Source: Eledone cirrhosa (taxonomy: Eukaryota). Taken from it: DNA of 64,000 nt. The notes under the pieces were generated by a model. That model saw only the letters and a program-made list of their open reading frames with translations, searched no databases and was not told where the DNA came from. Of the stretch, positions 18,091-57,418 are shown one piece after another. The DNA lies in the NCBI GenBank assembly GCA_964016885.1, contig OZ024742.1, forward strand, positions 260,586,001 through 260,650,000, read 5' to 3'. A program made the position numbers and the translations under genes. Each line of letters begins with the position of its first letter. Position 1 is the stretch's first letter.

Positions 18091-18169
18091 TAATGGAGGA
18101 TTTGTATATAAATATATATATATTGAGAGAGAGAGAGTATTTAAGTATCGAGAGAGAAGAAGAGATAGG

Positions 18170-18620
18170 AGATACATGTAGTTATTTGCCAATAGCATAT
18201 GCAAATGTGCTCAATACTTGTGCCTGCAGTGTTAAATATTGGAAGTGTTAATATCTAGTGGGCGAGAGTATAAGCAGAGTGGATACACGTGAAGAAGTAT
18301 ATAAAGGAGAACAAACTGTTAAAACAGCACCTACGTACGTTTCGCCCGAAAGGGCTTTTAGTGTTCTGTCAGACCCAGGAGCGCTACAGGCTTCTCAAGG
18401 GCATAAAAAACTAAAGTGTTCCTTACGTGACCCAGAAGGGGTTTTAAAGAAGAATGAACTGTGATGTGAATTTATCTTTAAAACCCCTTCTGGGTCACAT
18501 AAGGAACACTCTTTAGTTTTTTTATGCCCTTGAGAAGCCCTTTCGAGAGAAACGTACGTAGGTGCTGTTTTAAATAAAGATGTTTTAACAGTTTGTTCTC
18601 CTTTATATACTTCTTCACGT
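18170..18620. mobile_element. Penelope-like terminus with inverted repeat (18287-18620) and hammerhead motifs
   Basis: Arms of ~140-165 bp around a ~30 nt spacer; TTGAGAA-GCC..-GAAAC-GTAC-GTA core in each arm; tattgagcac motif in the extension. Confidence 0.7.
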
Positions 18621-19224
18621 ATATATATATATATATATATATAACCCCTGCTAGCATGGAAAATGGACATTAAATGATGATGATATATATGTGTGTGTGC
18701 AAAGACAAGACAGAGTAGAAGTTTAAGACCAGGTAAAAGAGAAGGCACAAAGCAGATAGTCATTGAGGAGGTCACAGAATGTGTGATGAATAAGGAACAA
18801 TAAAGATAAAGTGAAAATTATATGGTGCATGTAATTCTTTCTATTGGCAACAGGACCATCTTCAAGTATAATAATATATATATATATATAATTTTTAGCC
18901 TATATGTATATGAGAAACCAAAAAGACTAGAAACAAGATCTAATGGGCCCCTATGTATATATAACATAACATCTATTCTAAGACTATTTCACCCCGTTAA
19001 AGCAAAGGTCAACTTTGTTGGACAAATGACTAGCTTTATATCTGTCATAGGGTTCATGGCTGGTGACCCTTCCTTGTGCAGTTTTAGTCGCACCTCATAT
19101 AAACCACAGGGCTTTGATGTACCTATTCTAAATCTATGTATATATTTATTATATAAACTTTTTTAATAAACTTTTTTAATACTTTTAACTATTTGTAATA
19201 ATAGCAAGTTTGTTTTGAAGCATT

Positions 19225-19924: not shown

Positions 19925-20010
19925 GGTGACGCGCGTTTCACCACTGATCAGGTCAACGTTCGATCTGTATCGATCTAGCCCAACTCTGTAATACACGGCT
20001 TGTCAGACCC
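19925..20010 (-). ncRNA. Minimal hammerhead-ribozyme-like motif with long stem-II insert (Penelope-like terminus)
   Basis: Minus strand: ggt-CTGACAA-gccg[~52 nt]tggt-GAAAC-GCGC-GTC-acc, followed by AATAAA. Confidence 0.65.
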
Positions 20011-33304: not shown

Positions 33305-35497
33305 AGTATCATCATCATCACTGTTTAATGTCTATTTTCACACACTAGCAGGGAGACAAGTTTGAGACAAATCAGGTCAGAACTGACTGTATGAGCAATA
33401 CTGTGTCTTGCTCATACTGTGGAGCCCAGAACTGGATGGTACCGCTATGAGGAAGGAGAAGCCAGCTGGCCGCGCAAAACACATCTCATAACTGAACCAT
33501 AGTTTTAGAGCGTGGTACTGGATGACACTGATACGAGGAGGGACAGGCCAGTTGGCCGCGCCAAAACCCTTCTACAGAGGAACAGTCTGTGAGTCTGAAA
33601 TTGGGTGGTGCCGCTAAATGAGGAGGGACAGGCTAGCTGGTCGCACAAAACCCTCTTCATAGCAAAGCCATAGTTTGGGAACCACAACTATATTTACAAC
33701 CCGGTACTGGATGTCACCACTATGGGGAGGGCCAGGCCAATTGGCTGTGTCAAACCCTTCACACGGCAGGACTACAGTTTGGCTGCCACATGGCATCACT
33801 ATGAGTAGGGACTGACCACAGTCCGGGAGCCTGGAACTGGATGGCGCCACTAATGAGAAGAGACAGGCCAGTTGGTTGTGCCAAACCCCTCTTGCAGTGG
33901 AGTCACAATTTGGATGCTGAATTGCACCGCTATGAGGAAGGACAAGCCAGTTGGCTGTAGCAAACCCATCTCACAGCGGGACCATTGTTTTGGAGCTTGA
34001 TATTGGATGATACTGCTATGAGGAGGGACAGGCCAGTTGTCCGCATCAAACCTTTCTCTCATCGGAACCATAATTTGGGCACCACAACCATGTTTGCAGT
34101 GTGGAACTGGGTGGCACCACTATGGGGAGGGCCAAGCCAGTTAACCACACTGAACCCATCTCACAGCAGTACCACAGTTTTGGTGCCACAACCACATTTA
34201 CAGTGTGGAACAGCTGTGAGGAAGGATAGGCCATTTGACCATGATGCACCCTTCTCACTGCGGAAACCACAGTTTGGAACTGGATGGCACTGCTATGCAG
34301 AGGAACAAGCCTGTTGGCCATGCCGAACCTTTCCCACAGCTCAGGAACTGCATTTACAGTGTGGCACCGCTGTGAGGAAGTACAGGCCATTTGGCTGCGA
34401 CAAACTCTTCTCACTGCATACCGCAGTTTGGGAGCCTGGAACTGGATGGCACCGCTATGAGGAGGGACAGACCTGTTGGCTGCACCAAACCCTTCATACA
34501 GTGGACCCACATTTCAGATGCTACATGGCACCACTATGAGAAGGAACAGGCCAGTTGGCTGTGCTGTACCCCTCTCACAGCTGAGTCACAGTTCGGTTGA
34601 TGCATAGCACTGCTATAAGGAGGGACAGGCCAGTTGGCTGCGCCTAACCCATCTCACAGTGGAACCATAGTTTTGGAGCCCGTTACTGGATGACATCGCT
34701 ATGAGAAGGCCAGTTGGACGCACTGAACCCTTCTCACAGTGTAACTGCTGACCACGCAGAACTATAGTTTATGAGGGAGGTCATGTCAACCTTACTCATA
34801 AGTTATTGGGTGGGCCTACCGTCAACCATGTTTGTGGTGTGGGGCTGGGAGGAGCTGTGCCGGGGTTGAGTTGTCGACACGTGTCTTTTGTCGTACGTTG
34901 CAGCGCCAGAGGACTTGGTTTTGTGTCATCCTCAATGGGAGGTTCAGTTGAGTCAGGTCTGCCTTTATCATTTCATCCCACGTCTACCTGGGTCTCCTTC
35001 TTTTAGGGTATCCTGCAACTTTTAAAGACCTGCACCTCTTTAAGTAGCTTCTCTTCTGCACACAGCATTTGATCCCTCTTATGCCCAGTTTTGCCCTTAA
35101 TACATTTACACTTTGCTGTTCATATACACTTCTGTTACACATCCATCTGATCATATAGGTTTCGTTTCTTTCCAGTCTTCATAGGTCCTCAGCACACATA
35201 GCCCATGTTTTGCTACCATGTAGCATTGCTGAAGGACAATAATGAAGAGGAGGGGGCTAAGGATGGAACCCTGGTGAATTCCCACCTGTACGCTTAATTC
35301 CTCACTGTATTCATTGTTGATTTTAACTTTGCTGGTGGCTACTCTGTACATGGCCAGTACTGCTCTCACAAGCCATTTATCTACACCTTGTTTTCTAAGA
35401 GCTCAACATATTATGGGTCGAAAGCTTTCTCTAAGTCCACAAAGGCTAGGTAGAGCGGCTTGCTTTTAGCCAAGTACTTCTCCTGAATTTGCCTCAC
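33305..35497 (-). mobile_element. Deleted RTE copy whose 3' UTR holds a tandem array
   Basis: RT pieces 35000-35497; ORF2 end RPR*TWDEMIKADL..W at ~34870-35005; (GAT)n tail at 33308-33320; array in between. Confidence 0.7.
33415..34745. repeat. Diverged tandem array, ~83-105 bp units
   Basis: Recurrent actggatggcaccgctatgaggagggacaggccagttggc...cccttctcacag; first units start at 33431, 33517 and 33600. Confidence 0.9.
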
Positions 35498-42421: not shown

Positions 42422-42548
42422 AGCTATTTCGGCACTGAAAACTGAGATCTGATCAAAAAAAAAAAAAAACTTTCTCGAAAACAAAGCTACTGGAAAACCA
42501 GAGAGGAGTCTGTTGTTTTTTTTATTACATACTGCAAGACAAATTAGG

Positions 42549-43292
42549 ATGGTGATGAGACTACAAACGAGCGAAGCGATTAGGGCATTTACTGGTGAAG
42601 GCGATGTTGTCGCTTGGCTGCGAAAAGTCCAGCTGGTCGCAAGCTTACAGAAGATTGAAGATGTGGCTGGCCTCATGGCACTGTACCTCGAGGGGCACGC
42701 GTTGGTACTCTTCCTTGAAATGGATGAACACAGCCAAAGGGATGCGCAAAAGATCGAGAGGCGCATGATCGAAGCGTTCGCGGAGGAACCATTAACCGCT
42801 TTTGCTAAGCTGGCAAGAATTAGATGGAACGGTGAACGCGTTGACATTTTCGCAGCGGAAATACGGCGACTAGCCATGTTGGCTGGATATCAGGCAGAAT
42901 GCGAATGCACGGTGCGGTTGGCGTTCATAAATAGATTTTCAGACGACATAGTGGTGAAACTACAGCAAGTCCCAGGTTACAAAGAAATGGAGATGCATGC
43001 ACTTGTGGAGCAAGCCCACATCATAGCAGAAGATGCCAAGAAGAGTGTCGCGGTGATGGCAACTACAGAGGCCCAAGACAGCTGGCAGCGAAATGGTGAA
43101 AGGGAGGCAACCTCGGCACGCGGTCGCCCGCGAACGTTTAGAGGCCGCTGTTTTAGGTGCCAGGGCCCGCACATGGCGAGAGACTGTAGAGAGTCAAGGC
43201 CGGAAATAATATGCTACCGGTGTAAGCGACCAGGCTACATCGCTACTAACTGCGACCAGGGAAACGATCCGGTAGTTGCCCCTTATGAGTAG
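42549..43292 (+). CDS. gag: Gag with two zinc knuckles
   Basis: Open frame with CFRCQGPHMARDC and CYRCKRPGYIATNC; start codon uncertain. Confidence 0.85.
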   Translation: MVMRLQTSEAIRAFTGEGDVVAWLRKVQLVASLQKIEDVAGLMALYLEGHALVLFLEMDEHSQRDAQKIERRMIEAFAEEPLTAFAKLARIRWNGERVDIFAAEIRRLAMLAGYQAECECTVRLAFINRFSDDIVVKLQQVPGYKEMEMHALVEQAHIIAEDAKKSVAVMATTEAQDSWQRNGEREATSARGRPRTFRGRCFRCQGPHMARDCRESRPEIICYRCKRPGYIATNCDQGNDPVVAPYE

Positions 43293-46038
43293 AGGCGCTG
43301 CCCATGGTGGAAGTCTTCGTGAGGGGAAAGCCACAGCGAGCCCTTGTGGACACGGGCTGTACGACGACACTCGTGATCGCGGGGGTGGCGCAGTGGTGGA
43401 GAGGGAAGAGCAGCGTAAGGGCAGTCGACGGTAGGAAAATTGAATGCCAAGGTCGCAGCGAGGTGGAAATAGCGGTACGGGGAAGGAAAATAAGGCTTTC
43501 TGCCATCGTAGTCAACGTGGTGGATGGGATCGGCGTGGTTATGGGCATGGACAGAATTGGCCGTCTAGGAGGCGTCACAGTGAACAACGTCGGTGTGTCG
43601 TTTGACGGCACTGCATTGGTATGCGCAATGAGTACGCGACAGGAGAACCAGAAGGCCCATGAGGAGAAATACCCCGCTTACACTGTGCAGGACAAAGACT
43701 TCAAGGCCGTGTTCGATGGGCAGCGATGGGTTGTTGAGTGGTACTGGAAGGGAGAACCACCAACACTGAAGACCAAAGTGGGCTGCTATCAACACACATT
43801 GAAGGGAGACATTAGGAGCAAGTTCGGGCGAGAGGTAGAGAGATGGATTGAGGAGGGCATACTGCTTCCCTGGAAAGAGGAGGTGAAGTGCAGAGTATTG
43901 CCGTTAATGGCGGTGGCGCACCCACAAAGAACAAGGTGAAGCTGGTACTGGACTTTCGGGAGCTGAACGAACACATGTCATGCCACACGGGTGGTGAAGT
44001 CACGGATCTCTGTGGGGAAACCCTGCGTGAGTGGAGACGCATGACAGGGGGGTTCCACAATCGTAGATCTAAAGTCGGCATACTTGCAATTGCATATAGA
44101 TGAGAAGCTCTGGCAGTATTAGCTGGACAAGTATAAGGGCTGGACATATTGCCTGACCAGGCTCGGTTTCGGGCTGAGCTCTGCACCAAAGATCATGGCG
44201 GCGGTCCTCAAGACCATTCTGGGAAAGGCCAACAAGATGAAGAGGGCCACTAATTCCTACATTGACGACATCCTAGTGGACGAGTCTGTAGTGTTGGCGG
44301 CGGAGGTCACAAGCCATTTACAGGGGTATGGACTGGCTGCGATGTCGTCAGAAGCGTTGGAGGGAGGAACCGCGCTGGGACTTAGGCTACGGCGAGACAG
44401 GACGGGTGTCTTAGTATTCCAGAGGGGAAATGAAGTTCCAGAACTGGACCCAAGTATGAGTAGGCAGGAGCTTTTCTCGGTGTGTGGAAAGTTGGTGGGT
44501 CACTACCCGATTGCTGGGTGGCTCCGGACGGCATGCAACTATGTCAAGAGACGAGCGGGAGGGGTGACTTGGAGTGACAGAGTGGGAGAGAGGACAGTGG
44601 CCATGATACAGGAGATCGTGGAGAGGTTGAAGGCCGATGACCCAGTACGGGGACGCTGGTATGTTCCCAAATCGCAGAGCGGGACCATATGGTGGATGCA
44701 GCCTGGCTTAGGAAGAAGGACGACTGCAACCACATCAATGTGGCTGAACTGGACGCGGTGTTGAGAGGGGTGAACCTCGCCCTGAGGTGGGGACTGCGCA
44801 CCATCGAGATATGCACCGACTTGGCTACTGTACTCGGATGGGTGAGATCAGTGCTCACCAGTGAGAAGAGAATGCGAACGAGAGGGGCGGCGGAGATGCT
44901 GATAAAGCGCCGCCTGGGAACTTTAGGAGAGCTGGCCACCGAGTTCGACCTGAGGCTGAGCGTAGTTTTCATGCCCTCAGAGAAAAATAGGGCAGACGTC
45001 TTAACCAGGGTGAAGAAAGCCTGGATGGAAGCGCCAGAGGATGTAGAAGAGGAGATAGCTGCCGTGTGTCGGCTGACCGAGTCGGATCTGAAAGGGTTGC
45101 ATGACATGCACCACATGGGAGTGGATAAGACTCTGTTCCTATCCAGGAGAATCGACTCGGACGTTAACAGACACAGTGTTCAAAGAGTGGTTAGAGGCTG
45201 CGTCCGATGTCAGTCCATTGATCCCGCCCCGGTTGTGCACGAAACGGGAAGTCTCCCGGTGGATCGCGACGGGAAGCGATTGGCGGTGGATGTAACACAC
45301 TACCGACAGGAAACGTACCACTCGATGGTCTACTGTGGACCGGGACGGATGGCGATATGGAGGGAGATGAAGACTGGAACGGCCGAGGAAATCATGCGGA
45401 CGTTGAGAGAGGTGTTCTTGGAGCGGTGCCCTGTGGACGAACTGCTGATGGACAACAGCGCAGCATTCCACTCGGAGGCGCTGAGGGAGATGCTCGATGG
45501 ATGGAAGGTGGACTGTTTCTTCAGAGCAGCGTACAGGCCGAGCGGGAATGGAATCGTGGCGCGACACCACCGGACGATCAAAGCAATGGCGGAGCGGGGC
45601 CACATCTCACCAATAGAGGCAGTGTTCTGGTACAACATGTCCCCTCGGGTAGGACAGGTTGAGGAATCAGTGCCACACAGAGCAGTATTCAGATATGAGT
45701 GGCGGCACCCGTGCACGCCACCACAACGGCCAGTGGGGAGAGAGAATGCATTTGTGCAGGTGGGCGAAGAAGTCTGGGTTAAGCCCCCAGATGCACGTTG
45801 CACATCTCAATGGGGAAGGGGAACGGTGACGGCCGTAAATTCCCAGAACAATGTGTTCGTGGACGGAGTACCACGTCATGTCCTGGATGTCCGTAGAATT
45901 ACTGTGTCAACGGACTCCGAGGAAGAGGAAACCCAAAGTGCCGCCCCAACACTGCGGAGATCGCAAAGAAGTCACAAACCAGCAACCTGGACAGCAGACT
46001 TTCATATGCAGAAGGACGAGGGGGAAATTGATCCTTGA
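43265..46038 (+). pseudogene. pol: Pol (protease, RT, RNase H, integrase) with stops, frameshifts and a deletion
   Basis: LVDTGC, LDFRELN, DLKSAY, YIDD, HINVAEL..TD, NRADVL, HHCC, AVD..MDN..GIVA(E>A)R; -1 frame relative to gag. Confidence 0.9.
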
Positions 46039-46850: not shown

Positions 46851-47836
46851 ATCATCATCATCATCATCATCATCATCATTTTACGTCCGCTCTTCGCTGC
46901 TCGCAAGGGTGGGACGGGTCTTATTCAGCACAGCATCTCTCCACTTGTCACGGTCCTTTGTCATCTCCACCGTGAGCTTCAACAATCTGAGGTCTGTTCT
47001 CACCACCTCCACCCATGTTTTTCATGGTCTACCTCTACCATGTCTTCCTTCAACTGGCATTTCCTGGCACTTCTTCACCCATCGGTCATCCTCCATGCAC
47101 ATCACATGTCCATACCACCTCAGTCTCCTCTCCCGTACACTACATTCTATCCCTCTCAGACACAGTTTCTCTCTCAATGCATTCATGCTGGGTCGTTCAC
47201 GCACATTTACACTGCACATCCAACGGAGCATGCTTGCCTCATTTCTCTCCAGCCGTCGCATATCCTCTGCGGTCTCTGCCCATGTCTCACTACCATGCAG
47301 CATCGCGCTCCTCATACAGGCATCATACAACCGGCCTTTCGTACGCAGGGAGAAACCCTTCTTCATCAGCAGAGGAAGCAGCTCCCTAAACTTCTTCCAA
47401 CCCGTCCTTATTCTAGATACTATGGCCTCGGAACACCCACCTCCCATGCTAATCTGATCTTCTAGGTACCGGAAGCTATCCACCACTTCTATAGCGCTCT
47501 CCTGCATTTTAAAAATGTGTCTATCAATGCGACTTCTACTGTCTAATTTCCCTGTACATCTACTACATACATATTTCTCCCTACCTGTTACTTTGCCTGC
47601 TATCCCGCTACATCTCTTGTGTACCCAGGATCTGCATTGTGTGCATTTTATCGAATTTATGCCAGTTCCTTTTCTGCATATCGAACATGGCCATTCCCCT
47701 GATGGAATCAAAGTTTTGTCCTCTTTTCTACTCATCAACACTTTTGTCTTAGCTAGGTTCACTCTCAGTCCTCTTGCTTCCAACTGCTGTTTCCATAGCC
47801 AGAATTTATTCTCTAGCTCCTCTACTGATTCTGCAA
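46851..47836 (-). mobile_element. RTE family B 3' fragment, young-looking
   Basis: Long open frame 47022-47836 nearly matching 7540-8349; (GAT)n tail at 46851-46879. Confidence 0.95.
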
Positions 47837-47939
47837 TAAAGAATATATAAATACAAATATGATTGAGATGTCCATGAGGATGTTTGTGAGGAGTTAAGTA
47901 ATGATTATGATGTTTTACTATGGATATAACAGTCCTGTT

Positions 47940-48772
<833 letters not shown>

Positions 48773-56395: not shown

Positions 56396-57418
56396 CTAAT
56401 GGTACCATCCTCATGTCCTCTTTCCTACTTTTAGGACTTTCGTCTTTTATAAGTTTAGTTTTGGGCCTTTCAACTCAAGGTTCTTCCATGTTTGAAATTT
56501 GTTCTAACTTTCCTATGGATTCAGCTCTAAGGACTAGGTCAACAGCATATATGAGCTCCCACAACCCTCACAAGCCATTCATCTACAACTAGCTGCCTAA
56601 GTGCCCACAGGATTACACAGCGTTGGACCCAGTCAAAGGCCTTCTCCCTATCAACATAGATACAGTGGCTTACTCTAAGCTAAGTACCTCTCTTGTAGTT
56701 ATCTCACTATAAAGAAAACATGAAATAAAATATATTTCTTGGAAACTAGATTAACCAGAGTTTAAATGAAGTGAGAAAATAAAAATGAAGCGATAAAAGA
56801 AAACAGGATCTTGCACGGAGCATGAATGGTGTAGATTAAGTAGAAATGTAAATATGAAAGAAAATTATTTTCCATACAAGGGATGTGTAAAATATATGAG
56901 GGCTACTGAGAGATGTCCAGATTGAGCAGAATTTTGAACTACTTCTTACAAAATATTTCTATTTTCGGCACTACAACGCTATTAGCTGTCAGTCCAGTGG
57001 AAAACAGGCGAAGGTGACGTCACTCGTAAAACATCGTTTATTTCCGTATTACTACCACGCGTAAGTGGAGTTTTCACGCGTTTTTTTGAGAGAGAGAGAG
57101 AGAGAGAGGGAAGACTTAAAAGGGCCAAATTAGAAAACAAATAGAAAACAAGTCATGGTTATAAAGCACATCGATGTAAGTGGAGTTACTTAAATGAAAA
57201 TATAGGTGGCCCTTAAAAGGGCCAAATTAGAAAACAAGTCATGGTTATCAATGTAGAAAACAAGTCATTCATAAATTTAAGTTTTATAATAAAATTTTTT
57301 TCACCAACAAATATGACAGCTAATAGCGTTGAAGTGCCCGCAATTCTGTATCTTTACGTATATTGCGTATACGAGGGTTGACAAAGATACTCTCATAGAA
57401 TCTTTACGTATATTGCGT

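What the first reader, a model, noticed from the sequence alone, without database searches (positions are those of the whole stretch)
18326..18404. Hammerhead with U3-A8 covariation and a long stem-II insert, core apparently intact
Seen on minus: gccc-TTGAGAA-GCC[tgtagcg...aaaagccctttcg]GGC-GAAAC-GTAC-GTA-ggtgc. The usual C3-G8 pair is replaced by U3-A8, a compensatory change that argues for selection; stem III is the palindrome ACGTACGT typical of dimer-type PLE hammerheads; triplet GUA. The ~40 nt insert contains a competing GCCC-TTTC-GGGC hairpin, suggesting a folding switch. Best candidate in the window for an active, possibly undescribed ribozyme variant, though stem I is short and bulged.
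Basis: partly seen in the sequence, partly recalled or inferred. Interest (0 to 1): 0.75.

Follow-up and report, generated by a model that had tools for sequence, protein, structure and literature searches.

The report
Hammerhead split by a retrotransposon scar
This is one worn copy of a self-cutting-RNA motif found over 2,000 times in this genome at the ends of a known kind of jumping gene, and its "insert" is a 32-letter leftover of a second jumping gene that landed in it, so it is likely a damaged fossil and not a folding switch.

Summary
The letters are as described, but the reading is mostly wrong. The motif is the 3'-end hammerhead of a Hydra-type Penelope-like retroelement (PLE). Its U3-A8 core pattern occurs 2,103 times in the genome (control 0), and natural U3-A8 cores were published in 2011 and 2014.

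The locus is a back-to-back pair of 5'-truncated PLE ends in (TA)n.

The "competing hairpin" is the family's own stem II. The insert is 32 nt: the first and last letters of a ~366-nt Gypsy-type LTR, flanked by a 4-bp target duplication (AGCC). That duplication re-creates the 5' strand of stem II, which is why the core looks intact.

Predicted folding disfavours the active fold by 4-6 kcal/mol against an intact copy once flanks are included, and by ~30 kcal/mol in read-through RNA. In the bare 79-mer the gap is under 1 kcal/mol, so residual cleavage is not excluded. Cleavage is untested.

Side finding: a second, independent 33-nt ends-only LTR lies elsewhere in the genome. The scan has noted U3-A8 PLE hammerheads before on other DNA.

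The parts
18125..18450 (-). Left arm: 5'-truncated 3' end (pLTR) of a Hydra-type Penelope-like element, long-ended form with ~158-nt tail (18125-18282), next to (TA)n; has a 15-nt deletion just 3' of the hammerhead
18326..18404 (-). The finding: type I minimal hammerhead, U3-A8 core at 18398-18392, palindromic stem III 18340-18333, predicted cut between 18332 and 18331
18357..18388 (-). 32-nt ends-only remnant of a Gypsy-type LTR: shares 10 nt with the LTR 5' end and 24 nt with its 3' end, overlapping by a 2-nt microhomology
18389..18392 (-). Left copy of the 4-bp target-site duplication AGCC (A9 plus the first three bases of stem II)
18353..18356 (-). Right copy of the target-site duplication AGCC
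18344..18355 (-).
18449..18619 (+). Right arm: second 5'-truncated 3' end of the same element, short-ended form; joined to the left arm over a 2-nt overlap; makes a palindrome with a ~23-nt loop
18526..18565 (+). Insert-free hammerhead of the right arm; stem II 3' strand mutated (GGGC to GAGA, so the 10.1-11.1 pair is lost)
18620..18643 (.). (TA)n target microsatellite on the right; its left counterpart is at about 18105-18123

Best explanation
This is a copy of the ordinary U3-A8 hammerhead carried at the 3' end of a high-copy Penelope-like retroelement family, split by a 32-nt remnant of an LTR retrotransposon with its 4-bp target duplication, and it is likely an inactive, neutrally decaying fossil. 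History. (1, shown) A PLE inserted into (TA)n as two back-to-back 5'-truncated arms, one short-ended and one long-ended, each with a hammerhead. (2, shown from LTR termini and duplication; the order follows from the clean sister arm) A Gypsy-type element integrated into the left arm at the A9/stem II boundary and duplicated AGCC. (3, inferred) Its interior was lost by a microhomology-joined deletion, with or without a solo-LTR stage. (4, predicted) The duplicate lets a substitute stem II be drawn, but the native hairpin and insert-to-stem I pairing are preferred, and read-through RNA would fold into a long hairpin that buries both hammerheads. In intact elements the motif would work as a dimer or protein-assisted ribozyme on the element's RNA (inferred from PMC4209133 and PMC11167929).
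For: Family motif: 2,103 matches, control 0; 22 exact 37-mers; 88 of 90 copies have a 12-13-nt stem-loop II, one has 19 nt, and only this copy has 48 nt. Link to PLE ORF: RT, CxCx5C linker and GIY-YIG-like end upstream of the motif; RWK and DKT in 3 of 4 long copies, and a direct pLTR pair 3.5 kb apart in L109. Insert origin: its 19-mer has 86 matches, control 0, all 19 other loci examined being one LTR end; 6 of those 19 are solo LTRs with perfect 4-bp duplications; the two-LTR copy L111 encodes RT, RNase H and integrase. A second ends-only LTR with its own duplication lies in unrelated DNA with no hammerhead. Decay: the arms differ by 3 of 128 substitutions plus indels, and both hammerheads are damaged. 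Folding penalty for stem II plus free core, insert copy versus L013: 9.1/4.6, 9.6/4.0, 6.9/1.9, 7.0/3.1 kcal/mol in four flanked contexts; 29.8 in read-through; native hairpin probability 0.995.
Against: All conserved core bases are intact, and a 5-bp substitute stem II with the insert as an extended hairpin can form. In the bare 79-mer the penalty is 2.8 against 2.0 kcal/mol for an intact copy. A different family in this genome carries a natural ~59-nt stem-loop II, so length alone need not disable a hammerhead. Nearest-neighbour energies ignore tertiary contacts, dimers, proteins and co-transcriptional kinetics. The dimer fold was not obtained (searches failed). Pfam support for the PLE protein is weak: GIY-YIG E=0.0028, below cut-off, in 1 of 3 pieces, and no hit for the RT pieces. 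No compensatory stem II change was seen in 88 copies, so family-level selection rests only on a variable loop 2 beside fixed stems in a search biased towards conserved cores.
Confidence: 0.88

Rival explanations
1. Same history, but the copy keeps residual self-cleavage by accident: the duplicated AGCC rebuilds stem II and the LTR remnant folds as its extension. No function.
For: Core intact; substitute stem II of 5 bp; only 0.8 kcal/mol worse than an intact copy in the tightest context; long natural stem II in another family; weak stems II are tolerated in natural hammerheads (PMC3088659 passages).
Against: A 4-6 kcal/mol extra penalty with 10-46 nt of flank; burial in a -221 kcal/mol hairpin on read-through; metazoan PLE minimal hammerheads are inactive as monomers and weak as dimers (PMC4209133); no same-strand partner nearby, as the sister arm is antisense and has a broken stem II.
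Confidence: 0.09
2. One reading: a selected ribozyme variant whose insert is a folding switch.
For: Two alternative pairings of the 3' strand of stem II do exist. The insert is real DNA: 100-nt contigs match 18330-18429 with no difference in runs X1 and X2, one sample.
Against: The insert is single-copy in hammerhead context. It is fully explained as LTR ends plus duplication. The alternative pairing is a by-product of the duplication. The same kind of remnant occurs away from any hammerhead. The arm has no 5' part of the element and carries a further 15-nt deletion.
Confidence: 0.02
3. The insert is a repair-synthesis patchwork copied from nearby sequence, or an assembly error.
For: Two 7-mers of the insert recur in the same order 30-50 nt upstream in the PLE arm (seen).
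Against: Every base of the 32 nt matches the two ends of an 86-copy LTR family, and the 4-bp duplication has that family's length. Contigs from two runs carry it exactly, though these may be the assembled sample.
Confidence: 0.01

Closest known systems
Minimal type I hammerheads of metazoan PLE pseudo-LTRs, incl. the U3-A8 variant of Schistosoma mansoni Cercyon (Cervera and De la Pena 2014, PMC4209133; parts 1-2 of 4 of the text read, figures and supplements not seen)
   Same: U3-A8 core, short stem I, small palindromic stem III, position in the pLTR, mostly dispersed truncated copies, pairs on opposite strands 100-700 bp apart.
   Different: This family has a 4-bp stem II and no extra base between A9 and G10.1 (the Schistosoma motifs have 7-8 bp and a bulged base). 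This copy is split by an LTR remnant.
Hydra clade of C-terminal EN+ PLEs (Craig et al. 2021, PMC8557442; sections 3 and 11, passages, and part 2 of 59 plus passages of the supplement read)
   Same: RWK and DKT motifs, CxCx5C linker, no two cysteines inside GIY-YIG, CxxC and CxH around the conserved E and N, (TA)n target, 3' hammerhead, inverted 5'-truncated copy; the RT aligns by eye with Hydra-1_Obim and Hydra-1_Amil.
   Different: All 26 Hydra hammerhead rows in their File S2 start with C3, whereas this family has U3-A8. The element is about 3.5 kb against 2.1-3.0 kb, owing to longer linker inserts. The tail is ~158 nt against 30-40 bp.
Natural U3-A8 hammerheads (Perreault et al. 2011, PMC3088659; passages only)
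   Same: Same core pair swap, stated there to occur in several natural examples and to be active in vitro.
   Different: Those are not this family; activity of this family is untested.
Ty3/Gypsy-type LTR retrotransposon, solo and internally deleted LTRs (class name from domain order, established knowledge)
   Same: LTR begins TG, 4-bp target duplication, primer-binding site starting TGG right after the 5' LTR, gag-like DUF7041 then RT, RNase H, integrase.
   Different: The LTR ends in AA, not CA. The remnant here is only 32 nt yet keeps both termini and the duplication. Two searches for such ends-only remnants in print found nothing specific, a shallow check.

Membership tests
Type I minimal (PLE) hammerhead | Conserved core Y3-U4-G5-A6-N7-R8-A9 ... 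G12-A13-A14 with a Watson-Crick 3-8 pair | tested here: met
   TTGAGAA / GAAA, U3-A8
Type I minimal (PLE) hammerhead | Palindromic stem III with A15.1-U16.1 and NUH triplet | tested here: met
   ACGTACGT, GUA
Type I minimal (PLE) hammerhead | Stem II closed by G10.1-C11.1 next to the core | tested here: inconclusive
   Can be drawn through the duplicated GCC, but pair probability is 0.035 in the 79-mer and at most 0.006 with flanks, against 0.12-0.86 for L013
Type I minimal (PLE) hammerhead | Stem I | tested here: inconclusive
   2 bp + bulge + 2 bp, the same as the family's commonest form; no covariation seen
Type I minimal (PLE) hammerhead | Self-cleavage after H17 | not testable with these tools
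   Needs an assay
EN+ Penelope-like element | Single ORF with RT followed by C-terminal GIY-YIG endonuclease, upstream of the hammerhead | tested here: met
   Seen in longer copies; Pfam GIY-YIG only E=0.0028, RT pieces no Pfam hit; absent from this truncated copy
EN+ Penelope-like element | pLTRs, direct or inverted, with 5' truncation and optional tail | tested here: met
   Direct pair in L109, inverted in L108; 16 loci with inverted pairs, short plus long end in 11 of 12 scoreable
Hydra clade PLE | RWK and DKT motifs | tested here: met
   3 of 4 long copies; the fourth is truncated before them
Hydra clade PLE | CxCx5C linker; CCHH cysteine pair absent inside GIY-YIG; CxxC and CxH near E and N | tested here: met
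   Translations against section 11 of PMC8557442
Hydra clade PLE | (TA)n insertion preference | tested here: met
   All 30 loci end in TA repeats (query included TA, so biased); long copies likewise
Hydra clade PLE | Placement inside Hydra in an RT tree | not tested
   Only by-eye comparison with supplement proteins
Gypsy-type LTR remnant (the insert) | Both LTR termini plus target duplication of the family's length | tested here: met
   10 nt and 24 nt shared, 2-nt overlap, AGCC on both sides; 4-bp duplications at 6 of 19 other loci
Non-LTR retrozyme | Non-coding tandem monomers each with a hammerhead | tested here: not met
   No tandem array here; copies run upstream into a coding PLE ORF

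The most novel reading that the evidence does not exclude
Nested transposition built a new ribozyme by accident: the LTR's target duplication rebuilt stem II, the 32-nt remnant forms an extended stem II, and the RNA toggles between this active fold and the native hairpin, giving a switchable U3-A8 hammerhead. A more likely but smaller novelty (about 0.2) is that this LTR family repeatedly leaves 32-33-nt ends-only insertions by a preferred route, since two independent cases share a junction within 3 nt.
Probability: 0.04. Interest if true: 0.55.

Novelty: new member of a known kind. Interest (0 to 1): 0.2.

Why it matters
As a ribozyme it matters little: one damaged copy among more than 2,000. 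It is a clear case of how a target-site duplication can fake an intact core plus a switch. Two modest by-products. First, a Hydra-type PLE family with a U3-A8 core, where all 26 listed Hydra motifs have C3; 22 exact intact copies offer better constructs for testing PLE hammerhead function. Second, two independent 32-33-nt LTR remnants that keep both termini and the duplication; repeat annotators would miss these.

Tried and rejected
Rfam: no hammerhead family at E<=1; the miRNA-precursor hits at 18386-18543 are below gathering score and reflect the palindrome, so they were rejected.

Insert as a templated repair patch: suggested by two 7-mers shared with the arm, rejected.

Insert as a subfamily feature: a 30-mer with up to 3 mismatches found only this site.

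C3-G8 sister form with the same stem III: 0 matches.

Dimer folding: scripts failed, so no result.

LTR secondary structure as a guide for the deletion: DNA folds of 3 LTRs did not bring the two break points together; no support.

Expression: no RNA holder listed.

Other individuals: RAD-seq runs X4-X6 and contigs of X3 showed no depth over 18362-18385 at 95% likeness; X5 had depth of about 1 at 90%. This is uninformative, since the libraries are reduced-representation and LTR reads can lie there.

Paper searches for C3U/G8A and U3A8 spellings found nothing. No tRNA in the window. No earlier finding by sequence.

Full report
Observation. A simple descriptor scan found 3 candidate motifs in the window, this one included. 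Rfam has no hammerhead hit here, and its miRNA-like hits reflect a palindrome. The 79-mer has no unusual stability (z -0.11).

Surroundings. The motif lies in one arm of an inverted repeat. The left arm (minus, 18450 to 18125) and right arm (plus, 18449 to 18619) align with 125 of 128 identical bases plus indels of 1, 2, 15 and 36 nt. The right arm holds the same hammerhead without the insert, but its stem II has two substitutions that remove the 10.1-11.1 pair. Both outer ends abut (TA)n.

The family. A search with the right arm gave 42 scored places at up to 95% identity from 722 candidates. The insert-free pattern has 2,103 matches against 0 for the reversed control, 22 exact 37-mers, and no C3-G8 counterpart. 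Among 90 copies in fetched loci, 89 are U3-A8, 78 have a 12-nt stem-loop II, 10 have 13 nt, one 19 nt, and only this copy 48 nt. Those rows were picked by likeness to the core, so its conservation is overstated. Loop 2 differs among subfamilies (TTTC 34, AACT 14, ATTC 12, TTTTC 9 of 88), while no stem II pair shows a compensatory change. So the 'competing hairpin' is the normal stem II, and U3-A8 is inherited.

It is a Penelope-like element. Copies are 5'-truncated and run upstream into an ORF with RT motifs, a CxCx5C linker and a GIY-YIG-like end. Three of 4 long copies have RWK and DKT; L109 has hammerheads in direct repeats 3.5 kb apart, and L108 has an inverted truncated copy. These are the diagnostics of the Hydra clade (PMC8557442 section 11), and the RT resembles the Hydra proteins of its supplement by eye. 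Pfam support is weak and no tree was built. All 26 Hydra hammerhead rows of File S2 have C3, so a U3-A8 Hydra family is not in that list. U3-A8 itself is published for ~1,300 Schistosoma PLE motifs (PMC4209133) and for several natural hammerheads, stated to be active in vitro (PMC3088659). Of 16 loci with inverted arms, 12 could be scored: 11 pair a short end with a long end, and the twelfth begins the tail but fell under my threshold. Five of the 12 came from a query that favours a short end. This fits the tail signature explained by two RT start sites (PMC11167929, section 3 part 2 and passages), though the tail here is ~158 nt.

The insert. A 30-mer of it is unique at up to 3 mismatches, but its inner 19-mer has 86 matches, 29 exact, control 0. 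All 19 other loci examined are the 3' end of one LTR, some followed by a primer-binding site. That LTR is typically 366 nt and begins with the insert's first 10 letters. Six of the 19 are solo LTRs with perfect 4-bp duplications. The two-LTR copy L111 encodes a gag-like domain, RT, RNase H and integrase. The insert is exactly 32 nt, shares 10 nt with the LTR start and 24 nt with its end, overlapping by 2 nt, and is flanked by AGCC on both sides. Because AGCC covers A9 and the first three bases of stem II, the duplication supplies a new 5' strand next to the core. Two gapped searches found just one more such remnant, 33 nt with a CAGG duplication and a junction 2-3 nt away, in unrelated DNA. 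The searches could only see remnants of about 55 nt or less, so the closeness of the two junctions is suggestive only. Contigs of runs X1 and X2, one sample and possibly the assembled one, carry 18330-18429 without a difference.

Can it still fold? The cost of forming stem II with a free core was compared with intact copy L013 at matched flanks: 2.8 vs 2.0 kcal/mol with almost no flank, then 9.1 vs 4.6, 9.6 vs 4.0, 6.9 vs 1.9 and 7.0 vs 3.1. The native hairpin has probability 0.995 in the 93-nt context. The arm lacks the element's 5' part, so RNA would likely come from read-through, which meets the antisense arm first. That RNA folds into a hairpin of about -221 kcal/mol on either strand, with a penalty of 29.8 on the minus strand. 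Against this, the core is intact, the tight-context gap is small, and another family here has a natural ~59-nt stem-loop II. Metazoan PLE motifs are inactive as monomers and weak as dimers, and one needs the element's protein. The dimer was not modelled.

Verdict. A known kind of motif in a damaged copy, with a fully explained insert. Probability about 0.88 for an inactive fossil, 0.09 for accidental residual activity and 0.02 for a selected switch. Figures and supplements of PMC4209133 and PMC3088659 were not seen and may list closer motifs. The preprint 10.64898/2026.07.22.740005 was read in part 1 of 5 only; its supplements are closed.

Noticed in passing
L113:1501-1533 (-), G000:C4:315202369-315202401: Second ends-only LTR remnant, 33 nt, with a perfect CAGG duplication; shares 13 nt with the LTR start and 22 nt with its end, 2-nt overlap; no hammerhead or long palindrome around it.
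   Followed up: partly
window 19925-20010 (-): Hammerhead of a second high-copy repeat family (47 scored places, 1,994 candidates) with a C3-G8 core, a natural ~59-nt stem-loop II and palindromic stem III; often in inverted pairs ending in (TA)n. The window copy has G8 changed to A, so it is likely dead.
   Followed up: partly
L057-L076, L111: Gypsy-type family whose LTRs begin TG but end in AA, with 4-bp duplications; LTR length 300-496 nt; the two LTRs of L111 differ at 8 of 347 positions.
   Followed up: partly
window 18125-18282 (-) and 16 loci: Inverted insertions pair one short-ended arm with one arm carrying a ~158-nt tail (11 of 12 scoreable); longer than the 30-40 bp tail reported for PLEs.
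   Followed up: yes
window 18283-18620: The palindrome would give a ~150-bp hairpin RNA if transcribed, a possible small-RNA source.
   Followed up: no
G000:C1:74795817, 74812790, 74830641: Three identical family hammerheads about 17-18 kb apart on one strand, suggesting a segmental tandem duplication.
   Followed up: no
window 42453-46038 (+): Pieces of another LTR retrotransposon: protease, DUF7047, RNase H-like and integrase hits.
   Followed up: no
window 47922-48544: 84-bp-period repeat that looks like a C2H2 zinc-finger array on the minus strand (recalled pattern, not tested); a PHD-finger hit at 47025-47957 (-).
   Followed up: no
window 33432-34700: 14 diverged tandem units of about 80-130 nt (family D5); unexplained.
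   Followed up: no
window 57184-57228 (-): Histone 3' UTR stem-loop match at the gathering score (34 bits).
   Followed up: no
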